Positions 12,595-52,069 of a stretch of DNA of 64,000 nucleotides are shown piece after piece (the first letter of the stretch is position 1; every line of letters begins with the position of its first letter). The position numbers and the translations under genes are program-made. The notes under the pieces were generated by a model. The model was not told where the DNA came from. It saw only the letters and a program-made list of their open reading frames with translations, and searched no databases. This stretch comes from a virus (lineage: Duplodnaviria; Heunggongvirae; Uroviricota; Caudoviricetes): the IMG/VR virus record IMGVR_UViG_2609460060_000003, positions 1-64,000 of that record, one strand, 5' to 3'.

Positions 12595-12661
12595 AAGTTC
12601 CCTCCTACGTTGTCAGGAGGTAATGGTATGCAAAGTAACTTCTCAACCGGTCATGTTGCTT

Positions 12662-12695
12662 GACATCCTCCACGTCCTTTAGAGCGTGGAGGATG
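12662..12695. other. 12-bp-stem hairpin immediately 5' of the intron-like element
   Basis: ACATCCTCCACG / CGTGGAGGATGT arms with a 10-nt loop; the next base begins GTGCG. Confidence 0.6.
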
Positions 12696-13550
12696 TGTGC
12701 GCCCAGCATGGGCGCGATCTTGGAGGTGAAAGCCCTCCCGCGAGCTGACCACAGCGAGCGAAATGAAGTGCAACTGCGTGAGGGCGACCGGGCGTGGGGA
12801 GGAAGCACGGAATGAACCCGTGAGCCGATGAACGAGAATCGGATATGAGGCGCGATGGAGCAAGGCGAGCAGGCACATCACTGCGAAGCTTTCGTGGTCA
12901 AGTCGAAGTCGCGCAGATCCGACGGTTGTGCGGGGAAGGATCGCGTTCTTACCTGGGGAGTTCTCGCCTCATGCCTGAAAGGGCAACGTCGTAAGACGGA
13001 GCGAGAAGTCAGCAGAGGCCGTAGTAGTCAGGACTCCGACGAAGGGCCGAACGAGAAGGAAAGCCAGAAGATATGACTCTTGACAGGACATTGCGTCAGA
13101 AGCCGAGGAAGCCCGGTACGGACCCGCATGCCGGGTGGTGTGGCAGGGGCGCAGCCCTTGTGCTCCCCCCTATGCCGATCAAGCAGAACATTGTGCTGGG
13201 CCTCTGACGCAGCTCCTTGATGGTCTTGGCATCGTGCTTAAGTGGATTGGTGTCGTCCCTGATAGGATCATGGAGGCAGAATGAAACTCAAAAATCCGGG
13301 ATAGCACGCAAAACAGGCTGCACAAAAAGCGCAGGTTGCGTAGGAGTGAAATCCCGCTCCCAAAAAATGGTGCAGAAGTTGCGGCAGTGGTCATCCGACG
13401 CACTGGAAAATAACAAACCCGCCGTGACCAGAATCGGAGGCCTGAGGGAGTGACCGAAAAACCGGACAACCCAGGCAGCAAATACCCGCTGGATGAGGCA
13501 TGGTTCCGGCAGATAATACCGAAAACCGCCAGACACACTGGATAATCAGT
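12696..13550 (+). mobile_element. Group II intron-like structured RNA segment (no intact reverse-transcriptase ORF; 3' boundary uncertain)
   Basis: Starts GTGCGCCCAGCATGGGCGCG (group II 5' GUGYG signature); GC-rich and GNRA-rich; CCGTAGTAGTCAGGACTCCGACGAAGGGCC resembles a domain II/III region; only short Arg/Pro-rich ORFs on both strands. Confidence 0.45.
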
Positions 13551-13599
13551 AGAAATAATCCATTAAAGTTATTATAATAATTGGTCACATTATTATATT

Positions 13600-14163
13600 A
13601 TGCTGAACAATAGAAATATGACTATTAATGAACTTAAAGACTGTATTCACTATGAAGTAATTGGTAGCGAGCGTCCTTTCTCTTGGCGAAAAGCAATTGT
13701 TCGCGCAATAAAACATAGAAGAGTTCGTTATTTATTTTGGTGGCGCATATCAAAATATCTTTTTGATAAAGGCGGATACAGGCGAAAGGTTGCAGGGAAA
13801 ATAGAACGCTTCATTCTTGACAAATACAATGTAACCGTTCCCTTAACGGTAAATATAGGGAAAGGGTTTGACATATCTTATCTCAATGGCGTTGTTATCG
13901 CTCACAAAGTCACAATCGGTGAAAATTGTTCAATTAAGCCCGGAGTAACTATTGGACTTCGCGGGGAATTTAATGACATGGATATTGTTATAGGAGATAA
14001 TGTGACCATTGGTTGTAATGCCACCATTCTTGGTGGCAAAGTGCGTATAGGAAACAATGTCACAATAGGTGCTCATGCATTGGTATTGCATGATATTCCT
14101 GATGATTCAACATTCATCACTAAATTTCAGTCTGAAGTTATCTGCTCGTCCTCCCGCACATAA
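13600..14163 (+). CDS. Hexapeptide-repeat (left-handed beta-helix) acetyltransferase, WcaB/CysE-like
   Basis: Tandem [LIV]-G-x4 repeats ([16 protein letters not shown]...[33 protein letters not shown]); AT-rich coding sequence; 3' end overlaps convergent tfa by 37 nt. Confidence 0.8.
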
Positions 14164-14744
14164 CCCTGATTCATCAGCTCTGGCCATACGATATCCGGAG
14201 CTGTACTGGTATCAATTCGACTCACTAATACTCTGTATTTTCTCCAGGAGTCCAGTTGTGAATTTTCCTCGTTTGTTGCTATTTCAAGATTAACTGCGTC
14301 CTGCAGAATTGCGATGTTATCTGTTGCCTCCTGGATCAACCTTGCCTTTTTCTCTTCCGCTTCCCGTATCCGAAACAGTTTTTCTGCTTCCTCATCCTTC
14401 ACCCAGGATACGCCGTCCCACTTCTGATACTCCCCTGCTGGCGACAACCAGGTGACATTCTCTGGTAGCGGTCCGGGTTCAGAAATAAACAACGCGTCCC
14501 CCGATGCCACCTCATAGACCGTTTTACCACGATGGTCTTCAACAATATTCCACGATTCATTTTCACTGTTGAAAACTGCCACAAAGCCAGTAGGAATTTC
14601 CGGTGGGGCGATATCTGTAGAATTAGCTGGCAGCCCTGTATGAGGTGGAATATATGCGTCATCTTCACCAATAAACTCATTAGTTCCGGCCAGCAGGTTA
14701 TAAATTTTTACTGTACGTGATTGTTCACTCATTCTGAATGCCAT
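14127..14744 (-). CDS. tfa: Tail fibre assembly protein (lambda Tfa-like)
   Basis: [51 protein letters not shown] is near-identical to the lambda Tfa N-terminus as recalled; start overlaps the tail-fibre stop (TAATG). Confidence 0.9.
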
Positions 14745-17700
14745 TATGCAAGCCTCACAATATAATTAAATGCGATGTTTTTAACGGTGTTTTCCGCGTT
14801 ACCAGCAGCATTAACGGTGATGGTATGTCCATGTGAACCAATCGCAACAGAGTGCGTATGAGCGCCAATACCAACTGTATGTGCATGCGCCCCTGCACTT
14901 GCAGCAGTGCCTGATACTGAGTGGGTGTGTGCACCAGAAGAAGGCACTGTTCCATTCCCCACGACCGTGCCACTTGATGAACCATCAAGCCAGTCGAAAT
15001 TCATACCTCCACTGTTTGGTCTCCTTAATGGAACGGTATGAGTATGTGCGCCAGCACTATTTGCAGTACCAGATACATTGTGGGTATGTGCACCTGTGTT
15101 ATTCGTTGGTTTAGTACCGTAATCAAACGACGATGTGGTTTTCGTCCCCAAATCCGTACTGGATGCGCTGGCGCTGTGGGTGTGCGATTTAATGCCGTCC
15201 TGTTCCTGAGACAATACGGCCCGACCACTGGCAGGTTTGCCCTTAATCGTCCAGCCACGCATATCAGGGATCACGCCTGACGGATAAGCCGCTGCAAGTT
15301 TCGGGTAGGCAGATTTGTCAAAAGCCTGCCCCTGCATCAGGGCATAGCCAGACGGAACGGTATCTGATGGCCACGGGATTGGTGCGCCGACTGGGTAGCT
15401 TTCTGGTGGAAGATTTTTCGAGGTATAAACTTCTGCCCAGTCTTCCTCAAAACCATAACCGTCTCTTGAAGAACGGTAGAACAGACCACCATTTCTGTAA
15501 TGCGCCTTCATCTGCAGGGTCCGGCAACTTCCGAATCCGGTATAGAAGTTAACCAGAATATAGCTGTCGCCAGAGCGGGTGACATTGTAAGCGCCTGATT
15601 CGGCATTCCAGGGAACGCCACCATCCGCATCGGCATATGTATCCGTTGACCCTCTGGCAAAAGCAGCCACATGCGCGGCGGTTAAAGTGATATCAGTAGA
15701 ACCATCAAATGGAACACCGGATATTTTTCTTGCAGTCTGAAGTTTTGTAGCAGTTGCAGCATTACCGTTCAAACTACCATTGATGCCGCCAGTAACATTG
15801 AGTCCATTACCGATCGTAACAGCACCATTGGCATTGTTAATGATAAGCGGCCTTAACCTATTATAGGTTCCTAGGCTGTTACCCGAATCGGTCAACATGA
15901 AATATGTGTTTGAACCATCGTTTCGGATAAAGAATCCGTAGTTTCCGTAGGCAATGCGCAGACCATTCGCCGATTTGGAAATAATCTCGCCAGCAGCAGT
16001 TAATCCGCCAGTTAACGCTCCTCCAGATAGTGGTAAAGCTCCGACATCAGCCGCAGTAGGCTTGTTTTTAGTGTTATACGCTCTGCGCCATCCTGGTGAA
16101 TAGCTCGTCCCGTTAAACACATAGACAAACTCCGCATTAGTGAGTGCGCCAGAGACACCTGTCGTTGTTGCCGTTGTTATACGAATCGTATAATTGTTTG
16201 AGCTACTGCCGTTATTAAATACCTCAATAACTGCGCCAGCCAGTGGAATAATGCCGCATCCTGTTTCGCTGTCTGGTATGGATGCACTATTTGCATACGC
16301 CCAGGCACAACGCGCTATCCATGCTTTTGCATTAAAAGCACCATTATCTCGTAGCAGAGTCACTAATTGCTCTGTTGTTATTGAAGCTCCATTATCACCT
16401 GTTACAAGCCAACCAGTAGGAGATGCCGGGCAACCAATATTTGCTGGTGACAGTGAAATATTCGCAGAACCGTCAAATGAAACCCCATTAATGGTACGCG
16501 CTGTTAGCAATTTGGTAGCCGTAGCTGCATTACCGGTTGTGTTCTGGTTACCAGCAATGTTTACACCCGGCAGATTGATATTGGCGGAGCCATCGAATGA
16601 TACGCCGCCTATTGTGCGTGCTGTTTGCAGTTTTGTTGCAGTTGCAGCATTGCCAGTAGTGCTCTGATTACCTGTTTTATTCACACCTGGCAGGTCGATG
16701 TTTGCGGTACCATTAAATGAAACGCCACCAATGGTTCTTGCCGTTTGTAATTTCGTGGCAGACGCCGCATTTCCTGTTGTGTTCTGGTTGCCCGTTGTAT
16801 TTACGCCCGGTATGGAGTCTTTCGATGTATAGACCTGTGCCCACTCAGACCATGCCGCATCTGTGTTATCTCTTCGGGAGCGAATGAAAACTGGCGCATG
16901 TGCACCGCTCGTACCACTCCAGCCAATAAGCAACTCGCCCTCACCAGCAGCACTCGCACCTTTCATGTGCAATACGTTGCCATACGTGGTCGGGTAGCTA
17001 TTGTTGTACGCCTCGTACATTTGAATGCCAGCAGTGCCTTGAGTAGAGCCGCTTAACGCCGTAACTCGGCCACGAGATACCAATGTATTAATGTTGATAT
17101 CGCCTGAGCCATCAAACTTAACACCGTTGATGTTTCTTGCCGTCGCAAGTTTTGTCGCGGTAGCAGCATTCCCCGTGGTGTTCTGGTTACCTGTTGTATT
17201 TACACCTGGAAGATTGATATTGGCCGAGCCATCAAATGCCACACCGCCAATCGTGCGTGCTGTTTTCAATTTCGTCGCGGTGTCGGCGTTCCCTGTCAGC
17301 GCCCCGGTGATCCCGCCGTTGAAAGTCTGGCGCGCACTCCATGTGTTAGCCGTGCTCAACAGGGGGATCTTTTCACCGCTGGTACCGAGTTCTCTTAAAC
17401 CAAGGTATTGGATAACGGCCAGTGTGCTTGTTTTAGCCAGAATATCGCGACCGACTGACGTTAAATCAGTCTGCGCTACCGTATCCTTACCAGTGAAATA
17501 AGGCAGTTTGTTTGCACCAGTCGCAAGGGCAGCGAGCGCGGTTAAAGTTGCATCCAGAGGCTGTTTGCCTGCCAGCGCATTTGTCATTGTTGTCGCAAAG
17601 TTCGGGTCATTGCCCAGTGCTGCTGCAAGCTCATTCAGAGTATCAAGAGCTTCAGGTGATGAGCCGACCAATGCAGAGATAGCAGCTCTTACATAAGCGG

Positions 17701-18763
17701 TCGTAGCAATCTGCGTGTTATTCGTACCCTGTGCAGCGGTAGGCGCAGTAGGTATTCCCGTTAATGCAGGACTTGCTAAAGGAGCTTTAAGAGCCAGAGC
17801 ATTGTTGATAGTTGTGCTGAAATTCGGGTCGTTATTGATCGCAGCAGCTATTTCTTTAAGCGTATCCAGTGTGCCAGGTGCACCGTTGATAAGTGCCGTT
17901 ATAGCTGCCTTAACAAAGGCTGTATTTGCGATCTGCGTGCTGTTTGTACCTTGCGCTGCCGTCGGCGCGGTTGGCGTTCCTGTCAGACTCGGGCTTTCTA
18001 TTGGCGCTTTGGTATCAGCCAGCTCTTTTACAGACTTAACGGCTTTAGGGGTAGCCGCCATTGTTTCGCTGTCGCTGTTAGTTGCGCTACTGAGCTGAAC
18101 TAATCCCTTTTGTGTTGTGCTTGCATCCTGCGCCGTATACTTGCTTTTAGCCAGATCGTAGGCTTTTTTAACTGCCAGCGAACTCGCAGCAACATCACTT
18201 CTGGTACTGGTTACAGAGTCTGAAATATCAATGCCGATCGTGCGGTTGATACGCTTGGATGTATCAATCATCTCCTGGGTAATGGCAGATACACCAGCAG
18301 GGATATTCACCGTACAAACAAGCAGCTCCCCATCTCCTAACTGATATGAATCGGTATAGGTTCTGGAAACAAATTCAGCCGCATGAATATGTGACGCGGT
18401 ATTCACCTGATAGGTATCTTCTCCAAGGAGGTATCTTCCCTTCAGCACAATTGCATATTTCTTGCCTGCACTAAGTGCAAGAGAAATATCCTTACGTTGC
18501 TGAATAGTTACCTGGTAGAATTCACCAATATCCACCGACGCCGCGCCTGCGGTTTTATCACCATCCACTGAGGTGATTAACAGGTTCATCCCACCGCCAG
18601 GCTTAGGTAAGAAACCGGCATAAAATCCCGGGTCAACAATCCCCCTGAATTTTCGGTTTAGCGCGGCTGACAGATATGGTTCGTGGTATTGCACATCAGC
18701 CACCAGAGCCAACGACTCGGGTGATGGGTAAGTAACCGATGTGACAACTGTAACGTCATTCAT
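14744..18763 (-). CDS. Tail fibre protein (P1 S-like N-terminal part with lambda Stf-like distal part)
   Basis: 1339 aa from ATG 18763 (AAGGA RBS); at least six ~24-aa repeats [28 protein letters not shown]; followed by tfa. The track ORF from 18850 overlaps the upstream gene and is rejected as the start. Confidence 0.85.
17390..17415. other. Relic DNA-invertase crossover site (cix/gix/hix-like) inside the tail fibre gene
   Basis: TTCTCTTAAACC-AA-GGTATTGGATAA: 26 bp, two 12-bp half sites around a central AA, matching the Hin/Gin/Cin recombination-site pattern; no second copy and no invertase gene in the window. Confidence 0.5.
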
Positions 18764-18774
18764 CAAGCATATCC

Positions 18775-19209
18775 TTATGCTGTAGTCGTGTTTATGGCCA
18801 TAACTGCGGTATATGTTTTGCCCACATACAGCGAGTCTTCCTGGACACAAATAATGGCGATTGGCTTGTTCTCGTTATCCAGAACAACCAGAGTGTTGAA
18901 TGGGTAGTTTTTCCCTTCCTGCAACTGGCTTTGATCAAGGTCCATTCGGACAGTTATTATCCCGCCTGAGTAGGTTGGGACGAGGTTGATGGTGCAAAAT
19001 TGACTGGTCAGTTCTGCCAGATCGAAAGCCTTTGGCAGTTCTCCAATCTCATAAGTGCCATCTCCTTTCTTAGTAACCAGTGAACTGGTACCGAAAACGG
19101 CCTTGCTGATTAAAAATCGAGAGCCTTTGTTAATGGACGATTCAGCGCGCCGCTGATAGTAATAGTCCAACAACTGACTCTTATAGAGGTTTGTTGAGAC
19201 GTCAGACAT
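18775..19209 (-). CDS. Tail fibre-associated protein (P1 R-like)
   Basis: 144 aa immediately upstream of the tail fibre gene; stop overlaps its RBS. Confidence 0.45.
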
Positions 19210-29291: not shown

Positions 29292-29320
29292 TTGACCTTT
29301 TAATCGTTCAGGCTTATAGT
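29292..29320 (+). promoter_or_regulatory. Sigma-70 promoter of the immI (c4-icd-ant) transcript
   Basis: TTGACC, 17-bp spacer, TATAGT. Confidence 0.6.
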
Positions 29321-29439
29321 TTCGCCGTCGTAGCAAATTCTGCGACCGGGTTTAGCAGCCTGAATGATTGTGCGGACAGCCGCAGATATCCGATATTGCG
29401 GTATTTTTGTGTCCGTAAAACCGCGTTACGCCCAAATTA

Positions 29440-29515
29440 TGGTGGGGCGTGATGGGGAGGCTTCGGCCTGCTGGTTTCACAATCGCCAGTCTGCTAACCC
29501 CGTCACGTCCTGCCA
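29440..29515 (+). ncRNA. c4: c4-type antisense repressor RNA (approximate boundaries)
   Basis: Contains CACAATC and CTGCTAA, complementary to the motif GTTTAGCAGC...GATTGTG that occurs upstream (29350-29372) and again over the icd RBS (29519-29556). Confidence 0.5.
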
Positions 29516-29567
29516 CCTGTTTAGCAGCGGGTAGCAGGTTGTTAAACCTGATTGTGAGGCCGTAACT

Positions 29568-32955: not shown

Positions 32956-33078
32956 TACAATCGTTGCGGGTGCTTGAGGCTATCTGCTTCAGGCATTACC
33001 CGAAAAGCAGATAGAAGAAAGCCCCAGATAACATTACGCGTCCTGCAAGACGCTTAACATTAATCTGAGGCAATATCT

Positions 33079-33285
33079 ATGCTTAGCATACGTAGATTAG
33101 CCTCTTACCGACCAAAAGGTCAAGGAGAAGCAGGCTATGAAGCAGCAAAAAGCGATATTAATCGCTCTGATCGTCATCTGTTTAACCGTCATTGTGACGG
33201 CACTGGTAACGAGGAAAGACCTCTGCGAGGTACGAATCCGAACCGGCCAGACGGAGGTCACTGTCTTCACAGCCTACGAATCTGA
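33079..33285 (+). CDS. mok: mok-like overlapping frame of the hok module
   Basis: 68-aa ORF beginning 58 nt upstream of hok and overlapping it in a different frame. Confidence 0.4.
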   Translation: MLSIRRLASYRPKGQGEAGYEAAKSDINRSDRHLFNRHCDGTGNEERPLRGTNPNRPDGGHCLHSLRI

Positions 33286-50382: not shown

Positions 50383-50457
50383 GATGGTGTAGCTCAGCGG
50401 TAGAGCAGTTGGCTGTTAACCAACTGGTCGGTGGTTCGAATCCACCCACCATCGCCA
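50383..50457 (+). tRNA. tRNA-Asn (anticodon GUU)
   Basis: Cloverleaf folded by hand: acceptor GATGGTG/CACCATC, D-arm GCTC-AGCGGTA-GAGC, anticodon loop CTGTTAA, T-arm GGTGG-TTCGAAT-CCACC, encoded CCA. Confidence 0.85.
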
Positions 50458-50462
50458 CTTTA

Positions 50463-50549
50463 GGGGAGTTAGTCCGTAGGGGTAGCGGGGTAGACTGTAA
50501 ATCTACTGTCATTGCGACTCGGGTGGTTCGACTCCATCACTCCCCACCA
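50463..50549 (+). tRNA. tRNA-Tyr (anticodon GUA), class II with long variable arm
   Basis: Perfect 7-bp acceptor stem GGGGAGT/ACTCCCC, anticodon stem-loop GTAGA-CTGTAAA-TCTAC, variable-arm hairpin, T-loop TTCGACT, encoded CCA. Confidence 0.7.
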
Positions 50550-50553
50550 AATT

Positions 50554-50629
50554 GCCGGTTTAGCTCAGTTGGTAGAGCGCCTGCCTTGTAAGCAGGATGT
50601 CAGCGGTTCGAGTCCGTTAACCGGCACCA
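50554..50629 (+). tRNA. tRNA-Thr (anticodon UGU)
   Basis: Acceptor GCCGGTT/AACCGGC, D-arm GCTC-AGTTGGTA-GAGC, anticodon loop CTTGTAA, T-loop TTCGAGT, encoded CCA. Confidence 0.85.
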
Positions 50630-50720
50630 ACACAACAGGTAAGGGTATTTTGCGACGTCGGAGATCGCCGTGCTTGGCAGAGGGTTCGAATCCCTACGAA
50701 GTACCCTTACCGTTGTGATG
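50630..50720 (+). other. tRNA-like / long-hairpin element (non-canonical; contains a T-arm-like GAGGGTTCGAATCCCT)
   Basis: CACAACAGGTAAGGGTA pairs with TACCCTTACCGTTGTG about 55 nt downstream; no canonical cloverleaf could be folded. Confidence 0.3.
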
Positions 50721-51360
50721 AAGTGCAGCTCTTTGAAGCAACCAGAAGATAAGCATCTGGCTTCACAACATAAACCGCAGGAACGACCAATAAACGGTAG
50801 TCCGTATGGAGAACACCCCGTTGAGGAAGAGGCCTGGCCGGAACCGTAACCGGCACTACAACGTTGAGAACACTGGCGTAACGGGGTCATATCCCAATCT
50901 ACGAATAAATGTTGCGTTGCAGCGTGACAACCAGTGTTCTCAACATTGTGGTGAATGCACAGGCTGATGTGCCGCAACTACAGTAGTGCGCGCTTTGCGG
51001 GGCTTGCTACAACCCTGTGTCGGAGTTCAGCACCGACCATCACAGTTTGATTCTCTGGCATGAGCATAACGCTGAAATAAGTCCAGTCTGGTGCGGCCCG
51101 ATCACCCGCCGTTAGCTCCACGAAACGGAGCACGTAACAGGTAAGAGCATTCTCCTGTAACGGGTTCATATCCCAATCTACAGGTCCACCAGGAATGCTC
51201 TTTCCGTTGCGGTGAATGCGGCTAAGCGCACGCGGAACAGTTAAAACAATCCTCCTTAATGGTTAAACATTCCGGCGTTAATTGTTAACTGGTTAACGTC
51301 ACCGGGAGGCACTCGGCACCGCAATCTAATAAATATGTCACTTTTATTGAGGGATAACCA

Positions 51361-51795
51361 ATGTTCGGTAAATTGTTCGGCAAGAAAGTCGCTTCTGCAA
51401 AAGTAGAGCTGAAAAAAGTTGAGAATCGCGATCTGATGGAGGCCATCATCGGTGGCTGTTTGTTGGTGTCTGCCGCTGATGGTGAAATCGAAAAAGAAGA
51501 AACAGCGAAACTTGATCAGCTTGTCCGCTCTAATCCGCGTCTTAGTCATTTTGGTAACGAAATTACTGCAACAATTACCCGCTTTACCGAGCAACTGGAA
51601 GCTGGCTTCCGTGTTGGTCGCATGAATATCCTTCGCGAAATTGAAGATATCAAAAACGATCCAAAAGAAGCGGAAGAAGTATTCGTTAACATGCTGACAA
51701 TTGCAGAAGCGGACGGTGAAATCGAGCCAGCAGAACACAAAGTACTGGAAGAAGTAGGCCGTCGTTTAGGTCTTCGTGTGGAAGATTATCTGTAA
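51361..51795 (+). CDS. tciA: TerB-domain protein (TciA-like)
   Basis: 144 aa with two AADGEIE repeats typical of TerB. Confidence 0.75.
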   Translation: MFGKLFGKKVASAKVELKKVENRDLMEAIIGGCLLVSAADGEIEKEETAKLDQLVRSNPRLSHFGNEITATITRFTEQLEAGFRVGRMNILREIEDIKNDPKEAEEVFVNMLTIAEADGEIEPAEHKVLEEVGRRLGLRVEDYL

Positions 51796-51959
51796 TGGCA
51801 AGCAAGGCACGTATCGCAATCGCCATTGGTTTTCTCTTGCTGTCCGTGCTGGTGGATTTCACCAGCACAATCCTGTCAGTTTTATCGGACGGGGCGTTGG
51901 TGGCAGTAGCTGTAACATTGGTATGGCCGATATTAAAAACAGCTTCTAAGGATCAGTGA
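51795..51959 (+). CDS. Small membrane peptide (TciB-like), translationally coupled
   Basis: 54 aa, ATG overlaps the tciA stop (TAATG); two hydrophobic segments; below the track cutoff. Confidence 0.4.
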   Translation: MASKARIAIAIGFLLLSVLVDFTSTILSVLSDGALVAVAVTLVWPILKTASKDQ

Positions 51960-52066
51960 TGGGCTTCTGGGATTTTGCTGACAAGCATCCAATTGTTCTC
52001 GTTGTCATTGCTGGCATAGTTGTAGGCGGTATTGCTGGCGTCATAGAAGCACTCAGGAAACAGTAA
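51959..52066 (+). CDS. Small membrane peptide (TciC-like), translationally coupled
   Basis: 35 aa, ATG overlaps the upstream stop (TGATG); single TM segment. Confidence 0.35.
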   Translation: MGFWDFADKHPIVLVVIAGIVVGGIAGVIEALRKQ

Positions 52067-52069
52067 TCC

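What the first reader, a model, noticed from the sequence alone, without database searches (positions are those of the whole stretch)
13600..14163. Low-GC hexapeptide acetyltransferase converging on and overlapping the tail-fibre assembly gene
A WcaB/CysE-like left-handed beta-helix acetyltransferase sits on the opposite strand where P1-type phages carry the alternative U'/Sv' genes, and its last 37 nt overlap the 3' end of tfa. Its AT-rich composition contrasts with the flanks, arguing for horizontal acquisition. Phage-borne hexapeptide O-acetyltransferases are known to modify host surface polysaccharide, so a role in receptor masking or seroconversion is plausible but not demonstrated.
Basis: partly seen in the sequence, partly recalled or inferred. 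Interest (0 to 1): 0.6.

Follow-up and report, generated by a model that had tools for sequence, protein, structure and literature searches.

The report
Tail-fibre-linked acetyltransferase-like prophage gene
A small, AT-rich gene for an acetyltransferase-like enzyme travels between unrelated E. coli phages as one package with the tip of the tail fibre and its chaperone, probably to alter the cell surface of the lysogen, and unusually it has swapped the family's catalytic histidine for a tyrosine.

Summary
An intact ORF (13600-14163, +; conserved start 13618, 181 aa) overlaps the 3' end of tfa by 37 nt and has 38% GC against 48% for the window. It is a left-handed beta-helix (hexapeptide) protein with the serine-acetyltransferase fold. 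It fails the curated cut-offs for CysE, WcaB, EpsC and Vat, and lacks the serine-binding residues of CysE. It belongs to phrog_2154, function unknown.

The window is a P1-like phage-plasmid. P1's lydC, cin and the Sv'/U' half of the invertible segment are replaced by a dead group II intron fragment plus a 1.85-kb cassette: promoter, this gene, tfa and the fibre tip. The same cassette occurs at 85-95% identity in P2-like and lambda-like prophages. The gene is in 245 of 5426 complete E. coli genomes. Homologues down to 36% identity also sit convergent to tfa.

The otherwise invariant catalytic His (97 of 97 relatives) is Tyr in a monophyletic 12-sequence clade that includes this gene. That clade is under strong purifying selection (dN/dS 0.05-0.10).

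Best reading: a lysogen-expressed envelope-glycan acyltransferase linked to fibre specificity, acting in receptor masking or superinfection exclusion. This function is inferred, not shown. It is a new variant of a known kind, of moderate interest.

The parts
13530..15376 (.). Mobile host-range cassette: promoter, acetyltransferase-like gene, tfa and the last ~210 codons of the tail fibre.
   Evidence: One 1847-bp block is 93.7-94.9% identical in the P2-like phage and prophages L001, L003 and L005. Window 13543-15775 is 84.7% identical in the lambda-like prophage L004, which sits next to bioA/ybhB.
13550..13578 (+). Sigma-70-like promoter: TAGAAA, 17 nt, TATAAT (10 of 12 matches).
   Evidence: Found by the consensus scan. 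Both hexamers are conserved (TATAAT or TACAAT) in all three phage backbones, and in the lambda-like alleles homology to the window starts essentially at the -35 hexamer (alignment A4). This is a prediction only; no transcript data were available.
13618..14163 (+). Coding sequence from the conserved start, 181 aa (the longest ORF starts at 13600, 187 aa). The product has an N-terminal four-helix subdomain and a C-terminal left-handed beta-helix.
   Evidence: (phrog_2154, E 7.5e-78).
13879..13881 (+). Codon TAT for Tyr94 (187-aa numbering; Tyr88 in the 181-aa product), at the position of the family's catalytic histidine (E. coli CysE His158).
   Evidence: Pairwise and profile alignments to serine acetyltransferase structures place it there. 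That column holds 97 His and 12 Tyr and nothing else, and the Tyr sequences form an exclusive clade.
14127..14744 (-). Tail fibre assembly gene tfa (205 aa), convergent with the acetyltransferase-like gene and overlapping it by 37 nt (14127-14163).
   Evidence: Caudo_TAP at 2.8e-39; coordinates.
14744..15376 (-). C-terminal (distal) end of the tail fibre gene. It belongs to the shared cassette. The whole gene runs to about 18763-18850.
12697..13530 (+). Truncated group II intron, about 0.83 kb of the 5' end (context, not function). It fills the gap between the end of P1 homology and the cassette.
   Evidence: Rfam group-II-D1D4-3 at 96.9 bits and D1D4-1 at 46.8 bits. The sequence starts GTGCG at 12697. 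No domain V/VI model matched above gathering threshold anywhere in the window, and no long ORF is present. GC is 0.578.
12663..12696 (+). Perfect 12-bp stem-loop that ends directly at the intron's first base; probably the intron's former insertion target.
   Evidence: Sequence read directly.
17393..17412 (.). The single remaining cix-like recombination site (cixR side). The partner site and cin are absent, so the fibre specificity is fixed.

Best explanation
The gene is a self-transcribed 'moron' that forms the third part of a mobile host-range cassette, together with the tail-fibre tip and the Tfa chaperone.

Its product is a soluble protein, probably trimeric, with the serine-acetyltransferase fold: a short helical subdomain followed by a left-handed beta-helix. 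The fold is shown. The rest is inferred, as follows.

1. The gene is transcribed from its own AT-rich promoter in the lysogen, antisense to the late fibre operon.
2. The protein uses an acyl-CoA to modify a cell-envelope glycan precursor at the cytoplasmic face. LPS core or another Und-PP- or lipid-linked sugar is the leading candidate.
3. The surface structure recognised by the fibre encoded next door is thereby altered. This would give superinfection exclusion or receptor masking, and possibly seroconversion.

In this clade the usual catalytic histidine is a conserved tyrosine. A clade-specific aspartate (D128) sits in the neighbouring active-site loop. The chemistry is therefore probably retuned rather than lost, for example through a Tyr/Asp-assisted mechanism or a base-independent transfer such as onto an amine.
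For: Fold and family:
- Hexapep scores above its cut-off.
- The best profiles are EpsC, CysE and WcaB.
- An alignment profile matches serine acetyltransferase structures at E 1e-27 to 1e-30.

The gene is real and selected: dN/dS is 0.05-0.10.

Moron features:
- GC is 0.38 against 0.48 for the window.
- The promoter-like site is conserved and marks the left edge of the cassette in three phage backbones.

Linkage to fibre specificity:
- The same block of fibre tip, tfa and this gene is found in P1-like, P2-like and lambda-like elements.
- Of 80 IMG/VR loci, 75 have a convergent ORF directly downstream, and 55 of those are Tfa-like. Most of these loci are near-identical alleles.
- Among 30 distinct downstream ORFs, 13 match Caudo_TAP, and several others match tail or baseplate families.
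- Homologues at 36-53% identity in JL22, Hafnia phage yong2, phiNP and P0014 have the same arrangement.
- Identities of the acetyltransferase-like protein and of Tfa co-vary, with rho 0.86.

Glycan target:
- The non-phage relative P0068 lies between a Wzy_C (WaaL-type ligase) gene and an MsbA-like ABC gene in a Pseudomonas LPS-core-type cluster.
- P0103 lies in a glycosyltransferase/EPS cluster.

Precedent: the prophage left-handed beta-helix enzyme NeuO O-acetylates the K1 capsule and protects against K1 phage (PMC3046976, PMC9659370).
Against: - No experiment exists for any member. phrog_2154 is of unknown function, and the papers that mention homologues call the role unknown or merely 'fitness' (PMC9603915, PMC6456863).
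- The catalytic His, invariant in 97 of 97 relatives, is Tyr here. All left-handed beta-helix acyltransferases crystallised by 2011 used a histidine (PMC3046976), so acyl transfer is itself unproven.
- The co-variation with Tfa is what physical linkage alone would produce.
- Some relatives are orphans with no tail or glycan neighbours.
- The protein has no signal peptide or membrane segment, so it could only act on cytoplasmic intermediates.
- The acceptor and the fibre's receptor are both unknown.
- No terminator or Shine-Dalgarno sequence was found.
Confidence: 0.45

Rival explanations
1. It is a pseudo-enzyme or repurposed binder. After the His-to-Tyr change, the protein no longer transfers acyl groups. 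It acts instead by binding something, for example CoA or acyl-CoA, a lipid-linked sugar, or the fibre/Tfa complex.
For: The Tyr replaces an otherwise invariant catalytic His (97 His, 12 Tyr). No alternative histidine is conserved within the clade. The CysE partner residues Asp143 and Asp157 are also replaced. Strong purifying selection shows that a function is retained.
Against: The rest of the beta-helix and the loops that the alignment to serine acetyltransferases places on the CoA-binding side are conserved as in the His-type relatives (invariant G, I, N and P columns). The nearest His-type relatives differ very little around the site. Known base-less members of this fold are still active transferases (my own knowledge: WlbB, QdtC). 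A clade-specific Asp128 appears in the active-site loop.
Confidence: 0.15
2. It is an intracellular anti-phage defence or counter-defence factor. It acylates a phage or host cytoplasmic molecule and does not act on a surface receptor.
For: Prophage accessory slots often hold defence genes (PMC9122126, for the P2 old/tin locus). The gene has its own promoter and foreign composition. The protein is cytoplasmic.
Against: PADLOC gives no meaningful match (best E 0.035). The papers on P2 hotspots do not mention acetyltransferases or this slot. The specific, deep linkage to tfa rather than to generic hotspots, and the relatives in LPS and EPS clusters, point to glycans.
Confidence: 0.12
3. It acetylates a small molecule (sugar, xenobiotic or antibiotic) in the manner of LacA, Maa or XAT enzymes, and has no link to phage adsorption.
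Against: All of these scores are an order of magnitude below their cut-offs (for example Vat 23 against 300, LacA 33 against 347). The N-terminal helical subdomain and the best matches are of the serine-acetyltransferase type. The synteny with tfa would be left unexplained.
Confidence: 0.08
4. It is a genuine serine O-acetyltransferase, an auxiliary metabolic gene that boosts cysteine synthesis. This is what the database name implies.
For: RefSeq names it 'serine acetyltransferase'. Its closest solved structures are CysE enzymes.
Against: TIGR01172 scores 72 against a cut-off of 211, and PRK11132 scores 46 against 397. CysE residues D143, D157, H158, R192 and H193 are T, S, Y, M and D here. 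At 181 aa it lacks most of the CysE N-terminal domain. Its C-terminus is ...SSSRT, not the C-terminal Ile that docks into CysK (that requirement is my own knowledge).
Confidence: 0.03
5. It is passive cargo. The gene merely hitch-hikes on the most frequently exchanged phage module and gives no benefit tied to the fibre.
For: The linkage alone explains the co-variation with Tfa. IS1 insertions disrupt the gene in some chromosomes (H61 and H88). Orphan copies exist.
Against: dN/dS of 0.05-0.10 across dS of about 0.6 shows selection on the protein. The convergent position next to tfa is kept down to 36% identity and across genera. JL22 pairs a tfa 78% identical in DNA with a homologue only 36% identical in protein, which suggests the slot is refilled with the same kind of gene.
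Confidence: 0.07

Closest known systems
NeuO, the polysialic acid O-acetyltransferase of prophage CUS-3 (E. coli K1)
   Same: It is a prophage-borne, soluble left-handed beta-helix acyltransferase encoded by a temperate phage. It modifies the surface polysaccharide that phages use as receptor and protects against phage attack (PMC3046976, PMC9659370). That neuO lies beside the tailspike gene is from my own memory. This is the functional model for the present gene.
WcaB (colanic acid acetyltransferase) and EpsC-type CysE-like polysaccharide acetyltransferases
   Same: They are of the same branch of the fold and of similar size, and they are cytoplasmic enzymes acting on lipid-linked repeat units. 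They are the best NCBIfam matches after EpsC and CysE.
   Different: The scores are far below the equivalog cut-offs (WcaB 62.4 against 194.65; EpsC 81.1 against 150). From memory, WcaB keeps the His (motif IHHG). The gene context is a phage tail module, not a polysaccharide operon.
CysE serine O-acetyltransferase
   Same: It is the closest solved fold, covering both the helical subdomain and the beta-helix.
   Different: The catalytic and serine-binding residues are replaced, the N-terminal domain is shorter, and there is no CysK-docking C-terminus.
Phage O-antigen acetylases Oac (Sf6) and GtrC-type (acyltransferase-3 family)
   Same: These are lysogenic-conversion acetylation of the phage's own receptor, encoded by temperate phages (my own knowledge).
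   Different: They are integral membrane proteins of an unrelated fold that act at the periplasmic side. The present protein is soluble.
Cor (phi80, N15, HK022) and Llp (T5): receptor-blocking genes encoded next to the receptor-binding protein
   Same: They show the same genetic logic, in which an exclusion function is genetically coupled to the adhesin whose receptor it masks (Cor is cited in PMC12373910; the rest is my own knowledge).
   Different: They are small outer-membrane lipoproteins that block FhuA directly, not enzymes.

Membership tests
Hexapeptide / left-handed beta-helix acyltransferase superfamily | Hexapeptide repeats scoring above the Pfam PF00132 gathering score | tested here: met
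   51.7 bits against a cut-off of 27, E 5e-14.
Hexapeptide / left-handed beta-helix acyltransferase superfamily | Left-handed beta-helix fold | tested here: met
Hexapeptide / left-handed beta-helix acyltransferase superfamily | Catalytic histidine on the loop protruding from the helix | tested here: not met
   Tyr94 occupies the position of CysE His158. Relatives have 97 His against 12 Tyr.
CysE serine O-acetyltransferase | Score above the equivalog cut-off (TIGR01172 210.65; PRK11132 397) | tested here: not met
   72.1 and 46.1 bits.
CysE serine O-acetyltransferase | Catalytic dyad His158/Asp143 and serine-binding residues Asp157, Arg192 and His193 | tested here: not met
   The aligned residues are Y, T, S, M and D (alignment to 8i04 and 6wye).
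CysE serine O-acetyltransferase | C-terminal tail ending in Ile that binds CysK | tested here: not met
   The protein ends ...ICSSSRT. The requirement itself is from established knowledge, not from a tool.
WcaB colanic acid acetyltransferase | Score above the equivalog cut-off (TIGR04016 194.65; PRK10191 196) | tested here: not met
   62.4 bits for both models.
WcaB colanic acid acetyltransferase | Location in a wca/colanic acid cluster | tested here: not met
   The neighbours are tfa, the tail fibre gene and lydA.
Vat / CatB (XAT) antibiotic acetyltransferases | Score above the NCBIfam cut-offs (300-475) | tested here: not met
   22-25 bits.
NeuO-type phase-variable capsule O-acetyltransferase | 5' heptanucleotide VNTR (poly-psi) and a His/Trp active site | tested here: not met
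phrog_2154 (phage protein family, unknown function) | Full-length profile match | tested here: met
   E 7.5e-78, 261 bits; residues 5-186 align to profile positions 2-184 of 185.
Phage 'moron' (independently transcribed accessory gene) | Atypical base composition and insertion between or beside conserved phage genes | tested here: met
   GC is 0.38 against 0.48. The cassette edges were mapped in three backbones.
Phage 'moron' (independently transcribed accessory gene) | Own promoter and terminator; expression in the lysogen | tested here: inconclusive
   A conserved promoter-like site is present. No terminator was found on the + strand. Expression is not testable here.
Lysogenic-conversion receptor modifier | Chemical modification of an envelope glycan and reduced adsorption of the cognate phage | not testable with these tools
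   There is only indirect support: synteny with tfa and relatives in LPS and EPS clusters.

The most novel reading that the evidence does not exclude
The fibre tip, the Tfa chaperone and this protein form a portable unit combining adsorption with self-exclusion, used by P1-like, P2-like and lambda-like phages alike. In this reading, the clade with Tyr in place of the universal catalytic His is an active left-handed beta-helix acyltransferase with a new Tyr/Asp-based (or base-independent) mechanism. It modifies a conserved envelope glycan, such as the LPS core, which is the receptor of the co-transferred fibre.
Probability: 0.25. Interest if true: 0.7.

Novelty: new variant of a known kind. Interest (0 to 1): 0.45.

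Why it matters
If the inference holds, host-range modules of temperate coliphages carry their own receptor-modifying enzyme. Every exchange of a fibre tip would then also transfer immunity to phages that use the same tip.

That would bear on three things:
- how prophages shape phage susceptibility in about 4.5% of sequenced E. coli;
- how P1-like phage-plasmids, some of which carry resistance genes (JL22 carries blaCTX-M-55, PMC9603915), fix their host range;
- how phage-therapy cocktails are chosen.

The His-to-Tyr clade is also a natural test of whether this enzyme fold can work without its canonical base. At the least, the widespread RefSeq name 'serine acetyltransferase' is misleading for this family.

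Tried and rejected
- PADLOC defence models gave nothing meaningful.
- Antibiotic acetyltransferase models (Vat, CatB) scored far below their cut-offs.
- I looked for NeuO-like phase-variable repeats and found none.
- I looked for the rest of the group II intron (domains V/VI, reverse transcriptase). It is not in the window, and no near-identical full-length copy turned up in the plasmid collection.
- I looked for cin and lydC elsewhere in the window. Both are absent.
- Literature searches for a functional study of a tfa-adjacent hexapeptide or serine acetyltransferase found only two papers that list homologues without a function.
- I had recalled the P2 defence-hotspot work as possibly covering this slot. 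It covers the old/tin locus and does not mention acetyltransferases, so I make no such claim.
- The Rfam 'IS009' match inside tfa (75.9 bits against a gathering score of 117) is below threshold. I take it to be plain sequence homology of tfa genes, not an RNA gene.

Full report
**1. The observation**

The ORF 13600..14163 (+, 187 aa) exists and is intact. The gene on the opposite strand, 14127..14744, is a tail fibre assembly gene (Pfam Caudo_TAP, 2.8e-39). The two genes converge and share exactly 37 nt.

The ORF has 38.1% GC and 31.9% at third codon positions. For comparison, the window is 47.8%, tfa 46.3% and the fibre gene 49.0%. The 70 nt upstream of the ORF are only 24% GC.

The longest ORF is probably not the real one. 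In the lambda-like alleles a 1-nt deletion removes the first ATG. The ATG at 13618 is invariant and is the start used in RefSeq. The product is therefore most likely 181 aa.

**2. Where the window comes from and what was replaced**

The window is a P1-like phage-plasmid of E. coli. The 2.6 kb around the finding is 99.8-100% identical in dozens of E. coli plasmids, and 35 plasmid records carry the whole stretch.

Homology to P1 stops at 12661, just past lydA and its late promoter. It resumes at 17259, inside the constant part of the fibre gene S. P1's lydC, cin, cixL, Sv' and U' are missing. No cin is present anywhere in the 64 kb, and only one cix-like site remains (17393-17412). The host-range switch is therefore gone and the fibre specificity is fixed.

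Two things fill the gap:
- A dead group II intron fragment lies at 12697 to about 13530. It starts GTGCG directly after a perfect 12-bp stem-loop. Rfam domain I-IV models match at 96.9 and 46.8 bits. There is no domain V/VI match and no reverse transcriptase ORF.
- The block that contains the finding follows it.

**3. The gene is part of a mobile cassette**

Window 13530-15376 is one uninterrupted block. It comprises the upstream region, the acetyltransferase-like gene, tfa and the last ~210 codons of the fibre.

The block is 93.7-94.9% identical in three P2-like elements: a P2-like phage (vB_EcoM-613R2), a chromosomal P2-like prophage and a 47-kb phage-plasmid with P2-type baseplate genes. 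It is 84.7% identical (13543-15775) in a lambda-like prophage integrated beside bioA/ybhB.

The left edge of the shared block coincides with a promoter-like site, TAGAAA-17-TATAAT at 13550-13578. Its hexamers are conserved in all three backbones.

The gene occurs in 245 of 5426 complete E. coli genomes, at 219 chromosomal and 58 plasmid places. Nearly all of the 40 records sampled across the ranking are annotated next to a tail fibre assembly protein.

**4. The association with tfa is old**

- Of 80 IMG/VR loci encoding relatives (36-100% identity), 75 have a convergent ORF directly downstream, and 55 of these are Tfa-like. About half of the 80 loci are near-identical alleles, so these counts are not independent events.
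- Among 30 distinct downstream ORFs, 13 hit Caudo_TAP, and several of the others hit tail or baseplate families.
- The same arrangement is seen with distant homologues: P1-like phage JL22 (36% identity, inside an intact cin/C-segment region), Hafnia phage yong2 (52%), Citrobacter phage phiNP (40%) and a metagenomic P2-like contig (P0014, 53%).
- Identities of the two proteins co-vary (Spearman 0.86 over 36 distinct pairs). Physical linkage alone would also give this result.
- JL22 is a counter-example in the other direction. Its tfa is 78% identical in DNA to the window's, but its acetyltransferase-like protein is only 36% identical. This suggests the slot can be refilled with another gene of the same kind.

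**5. What the protein is**

The Pfam Hexapep match is above threshold. The best curated models are EpsC (81 bits against a cut-off of 150), CysE (72 against 211) and WcaB (62 against 195). All fail, and the Vat/CatB models score about 23 bits against 300 or more. The protein matches phrog_2154 over its full length (E 7.5e-78), a family of unknown function. PADLOC gives nothing.

The fold is thus that of serine acetyltransferase. The residues that make CysE a serine acetyltransferase are not kept, however: D143, D157, H158, R192 and H193 align with T, S, Y, M and D. The C-terminus is not CysK-docking. A metabolic serine acetyltransferase role is very unlikely.

**6. The unexpected feature**

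The family motif is IGxGLxIxHxxGIVI, and its His aligns with the catalytic His of serine acetyltransferases. In a 109-sequence alignment that column holds 97 His and 12 Tyr and nothing else. The 12 Tyr sequences, this gene included, form an exclusive clade in a neighbour-joining tree.

The clade is small. Only four 50%-identity clusters among 1.84 billion representatives reach E 1e-30. Of those, P0009 and P0010 are Tyr-type, P0025 is a fragment that does not cover the site, and P0121 is His-type. The clade is nevertheless internally diverse, down to about 52% identity.

Its E. coli alleles show dN/dS of 0.05-0.10 at dS up to 0.7. The Tyr is therefore an old, selected state and not a recent knockout.

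No replacement His is conserved in the clade. Clade-specific fixed residues include P114 and D128, and D128 aligns with CysE His193 in the active-site loop. I infer a retuned active site. A non-catalytic role cannot be excluded.

**7. What it probably does**

Relatives outside phages point to envelope glycans.
- A Pseudomonas luteola homologue lies between a Wzy_C (O-antigen-ligase-type) gene and an MsbA-like ABC gene. The same cluster holds glycosyltransferase, carbamoyltransferase and heptose-pathway genes.
- A Geobacter homologue lies in a glycosyltransferase/UDP-glucose dehydrogenase cluster.
- Other enterobacterial copies are orphans or sit at prophage or island ends.

Three things support the same reading: the moron-like anatomy, the linkage to the fibre tip, and the NeuO precedent. 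NeuO is a prophage beta-helix O-acetyltransferase that protects K1 strains from K1 phages (PMC3046976, PMC9659370).

On this basis the best-supported model is a lysogen-expressed cytoplasmic acyltransferase. It would modify a precursor of the glycan recognised by the neighbouring fibre, giving exclusion or receptor masking.

Shown here:
- the fold;
- selection on the protein;
- the cassette structure;
- the synteny;
- the residue replacements.

Inferred, not shown:
- expression in the lysogen;
- acyl transfer;
- the acceptor;
- the effect on adsorption.

The convergent overlap also predicts mutual antisense transcription with the late fibre operon. No + strand terminator was found. This prediction is untested.

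**8. Comparison with what is known, and novelty**

The literature I could search mentions homologues twice. For JL22 the authors state that the reason for its presence is still unknown (PMC9603915). For phiNP the gene is listed as 'fitness' cargo (PMC6456863). I found no functional study.

The kind, a phage-borne surface-glycan acetyltransferase coupled to the receptor-binding module, is known from NeuO and, in a different fold, from Oac and GtrC. This family differs in four respects: the serine-acetyltransferase fold, solubility, its three-part cassette shared across P1-like, P2-like and lambda-like phages, and in this clade the Tyr in place of the catalytic His.

I therefore rate it a new variant of a known kind with moderate interest (0.45). 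The gene itself is already annotated in hundreds of genomes, although the name it carries is probably wrong.

Noticed in passing
window 12663-13530 (+): A truncated group II intron. Its GTGCG 5' end at 12697 follows directly on a perfect 12-bp stem-loop (12663-12696), and Rfam domain I-IV models match. There is no domain V/VI, no reverse transcriptase ORF, and GC is 58%. The complete fragment occurs only in the same P1-like plasmids (35 records). Other plasmid records, in E. coli, Sinorhizobium and further genera, match only parts of it, at 79-96% identity.
   Followed up: partly
window 12661-17413: This P1-like element has lost lydC, cin, cixL and the Sv'/U' half of the invertible C-segment. 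One cix-like site remains (17393-17412), so the host-range switch is frozen. The related phage JL22 keeps cin and carries a His-type homologue of the acetyltransferase-like gene on the far side of Sv'/U' from cin, where the C-segment lies in P1.
   Followed up: partly
window 14744-18850 (-): The tail fibre gene is a three-part chimera. The P1 Sc-like N-terminus (from 17259 on) is 96% identical to P1. The central part has several copies of a motif of the type ...[32 protein letters not shown].... The C-terminal tip (14744-15376) is rich in HxH motifs and is shared with P2-like prophages.
   Followed up: partly
window 14203-14401 (-): There is a sub-threshold Rfam match to 'IS009' (75.9 bits; gathering score 117) inside tfa. 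It most likely reflects plain homology between prophage tfa genes rather than an RNA gene.
   Followed up: no
window 29314-29520, 32968-33142, 50383-52142: Other RNA features typical of P1-like elements are present: the C4 antisense RNA and its a1/b1 targets, a sok-type antitoxin RNA, and four tRNA matches.
   Followed up: no
L011 6001-6588 (Pseudomonas luteola contig RHRV01000001.1): A 35%-identical His-type relative overlaps by 4 nt the end of a Wzy_C (O-antigen-ligase-type) gene in an LPS-core-type cluster that also holds an MsbA-like ABC transporter and heptose-pathway genes. It may be the best non-phage clue to the acceptor.
   Followed up: partly
L106 5010-5537 (Streptococcus phage 9871): A 31%-identical relative lies directly after the last virion structural gene and before the holin, on the same strand, in phages isolated from dairy whey. 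Genes of this kind also close the tail module in Gram-positive phages, which a purely lysogenic-conversion role may not explain.
   Followed up: no
E. coli chromosomes NZ_CM180509.1 and NZ_CM173935.1 (hits H61, H88): IS1 insertions split the acetyltransferase-like gene in some chromosomal prophages. RefSeq names the same gene variously 'serine acetyltransferase', 'transferase', 'LbetaH domain-containing protein' and 'DapH/DapD/GlmU-related protein'.
   Followed up: no
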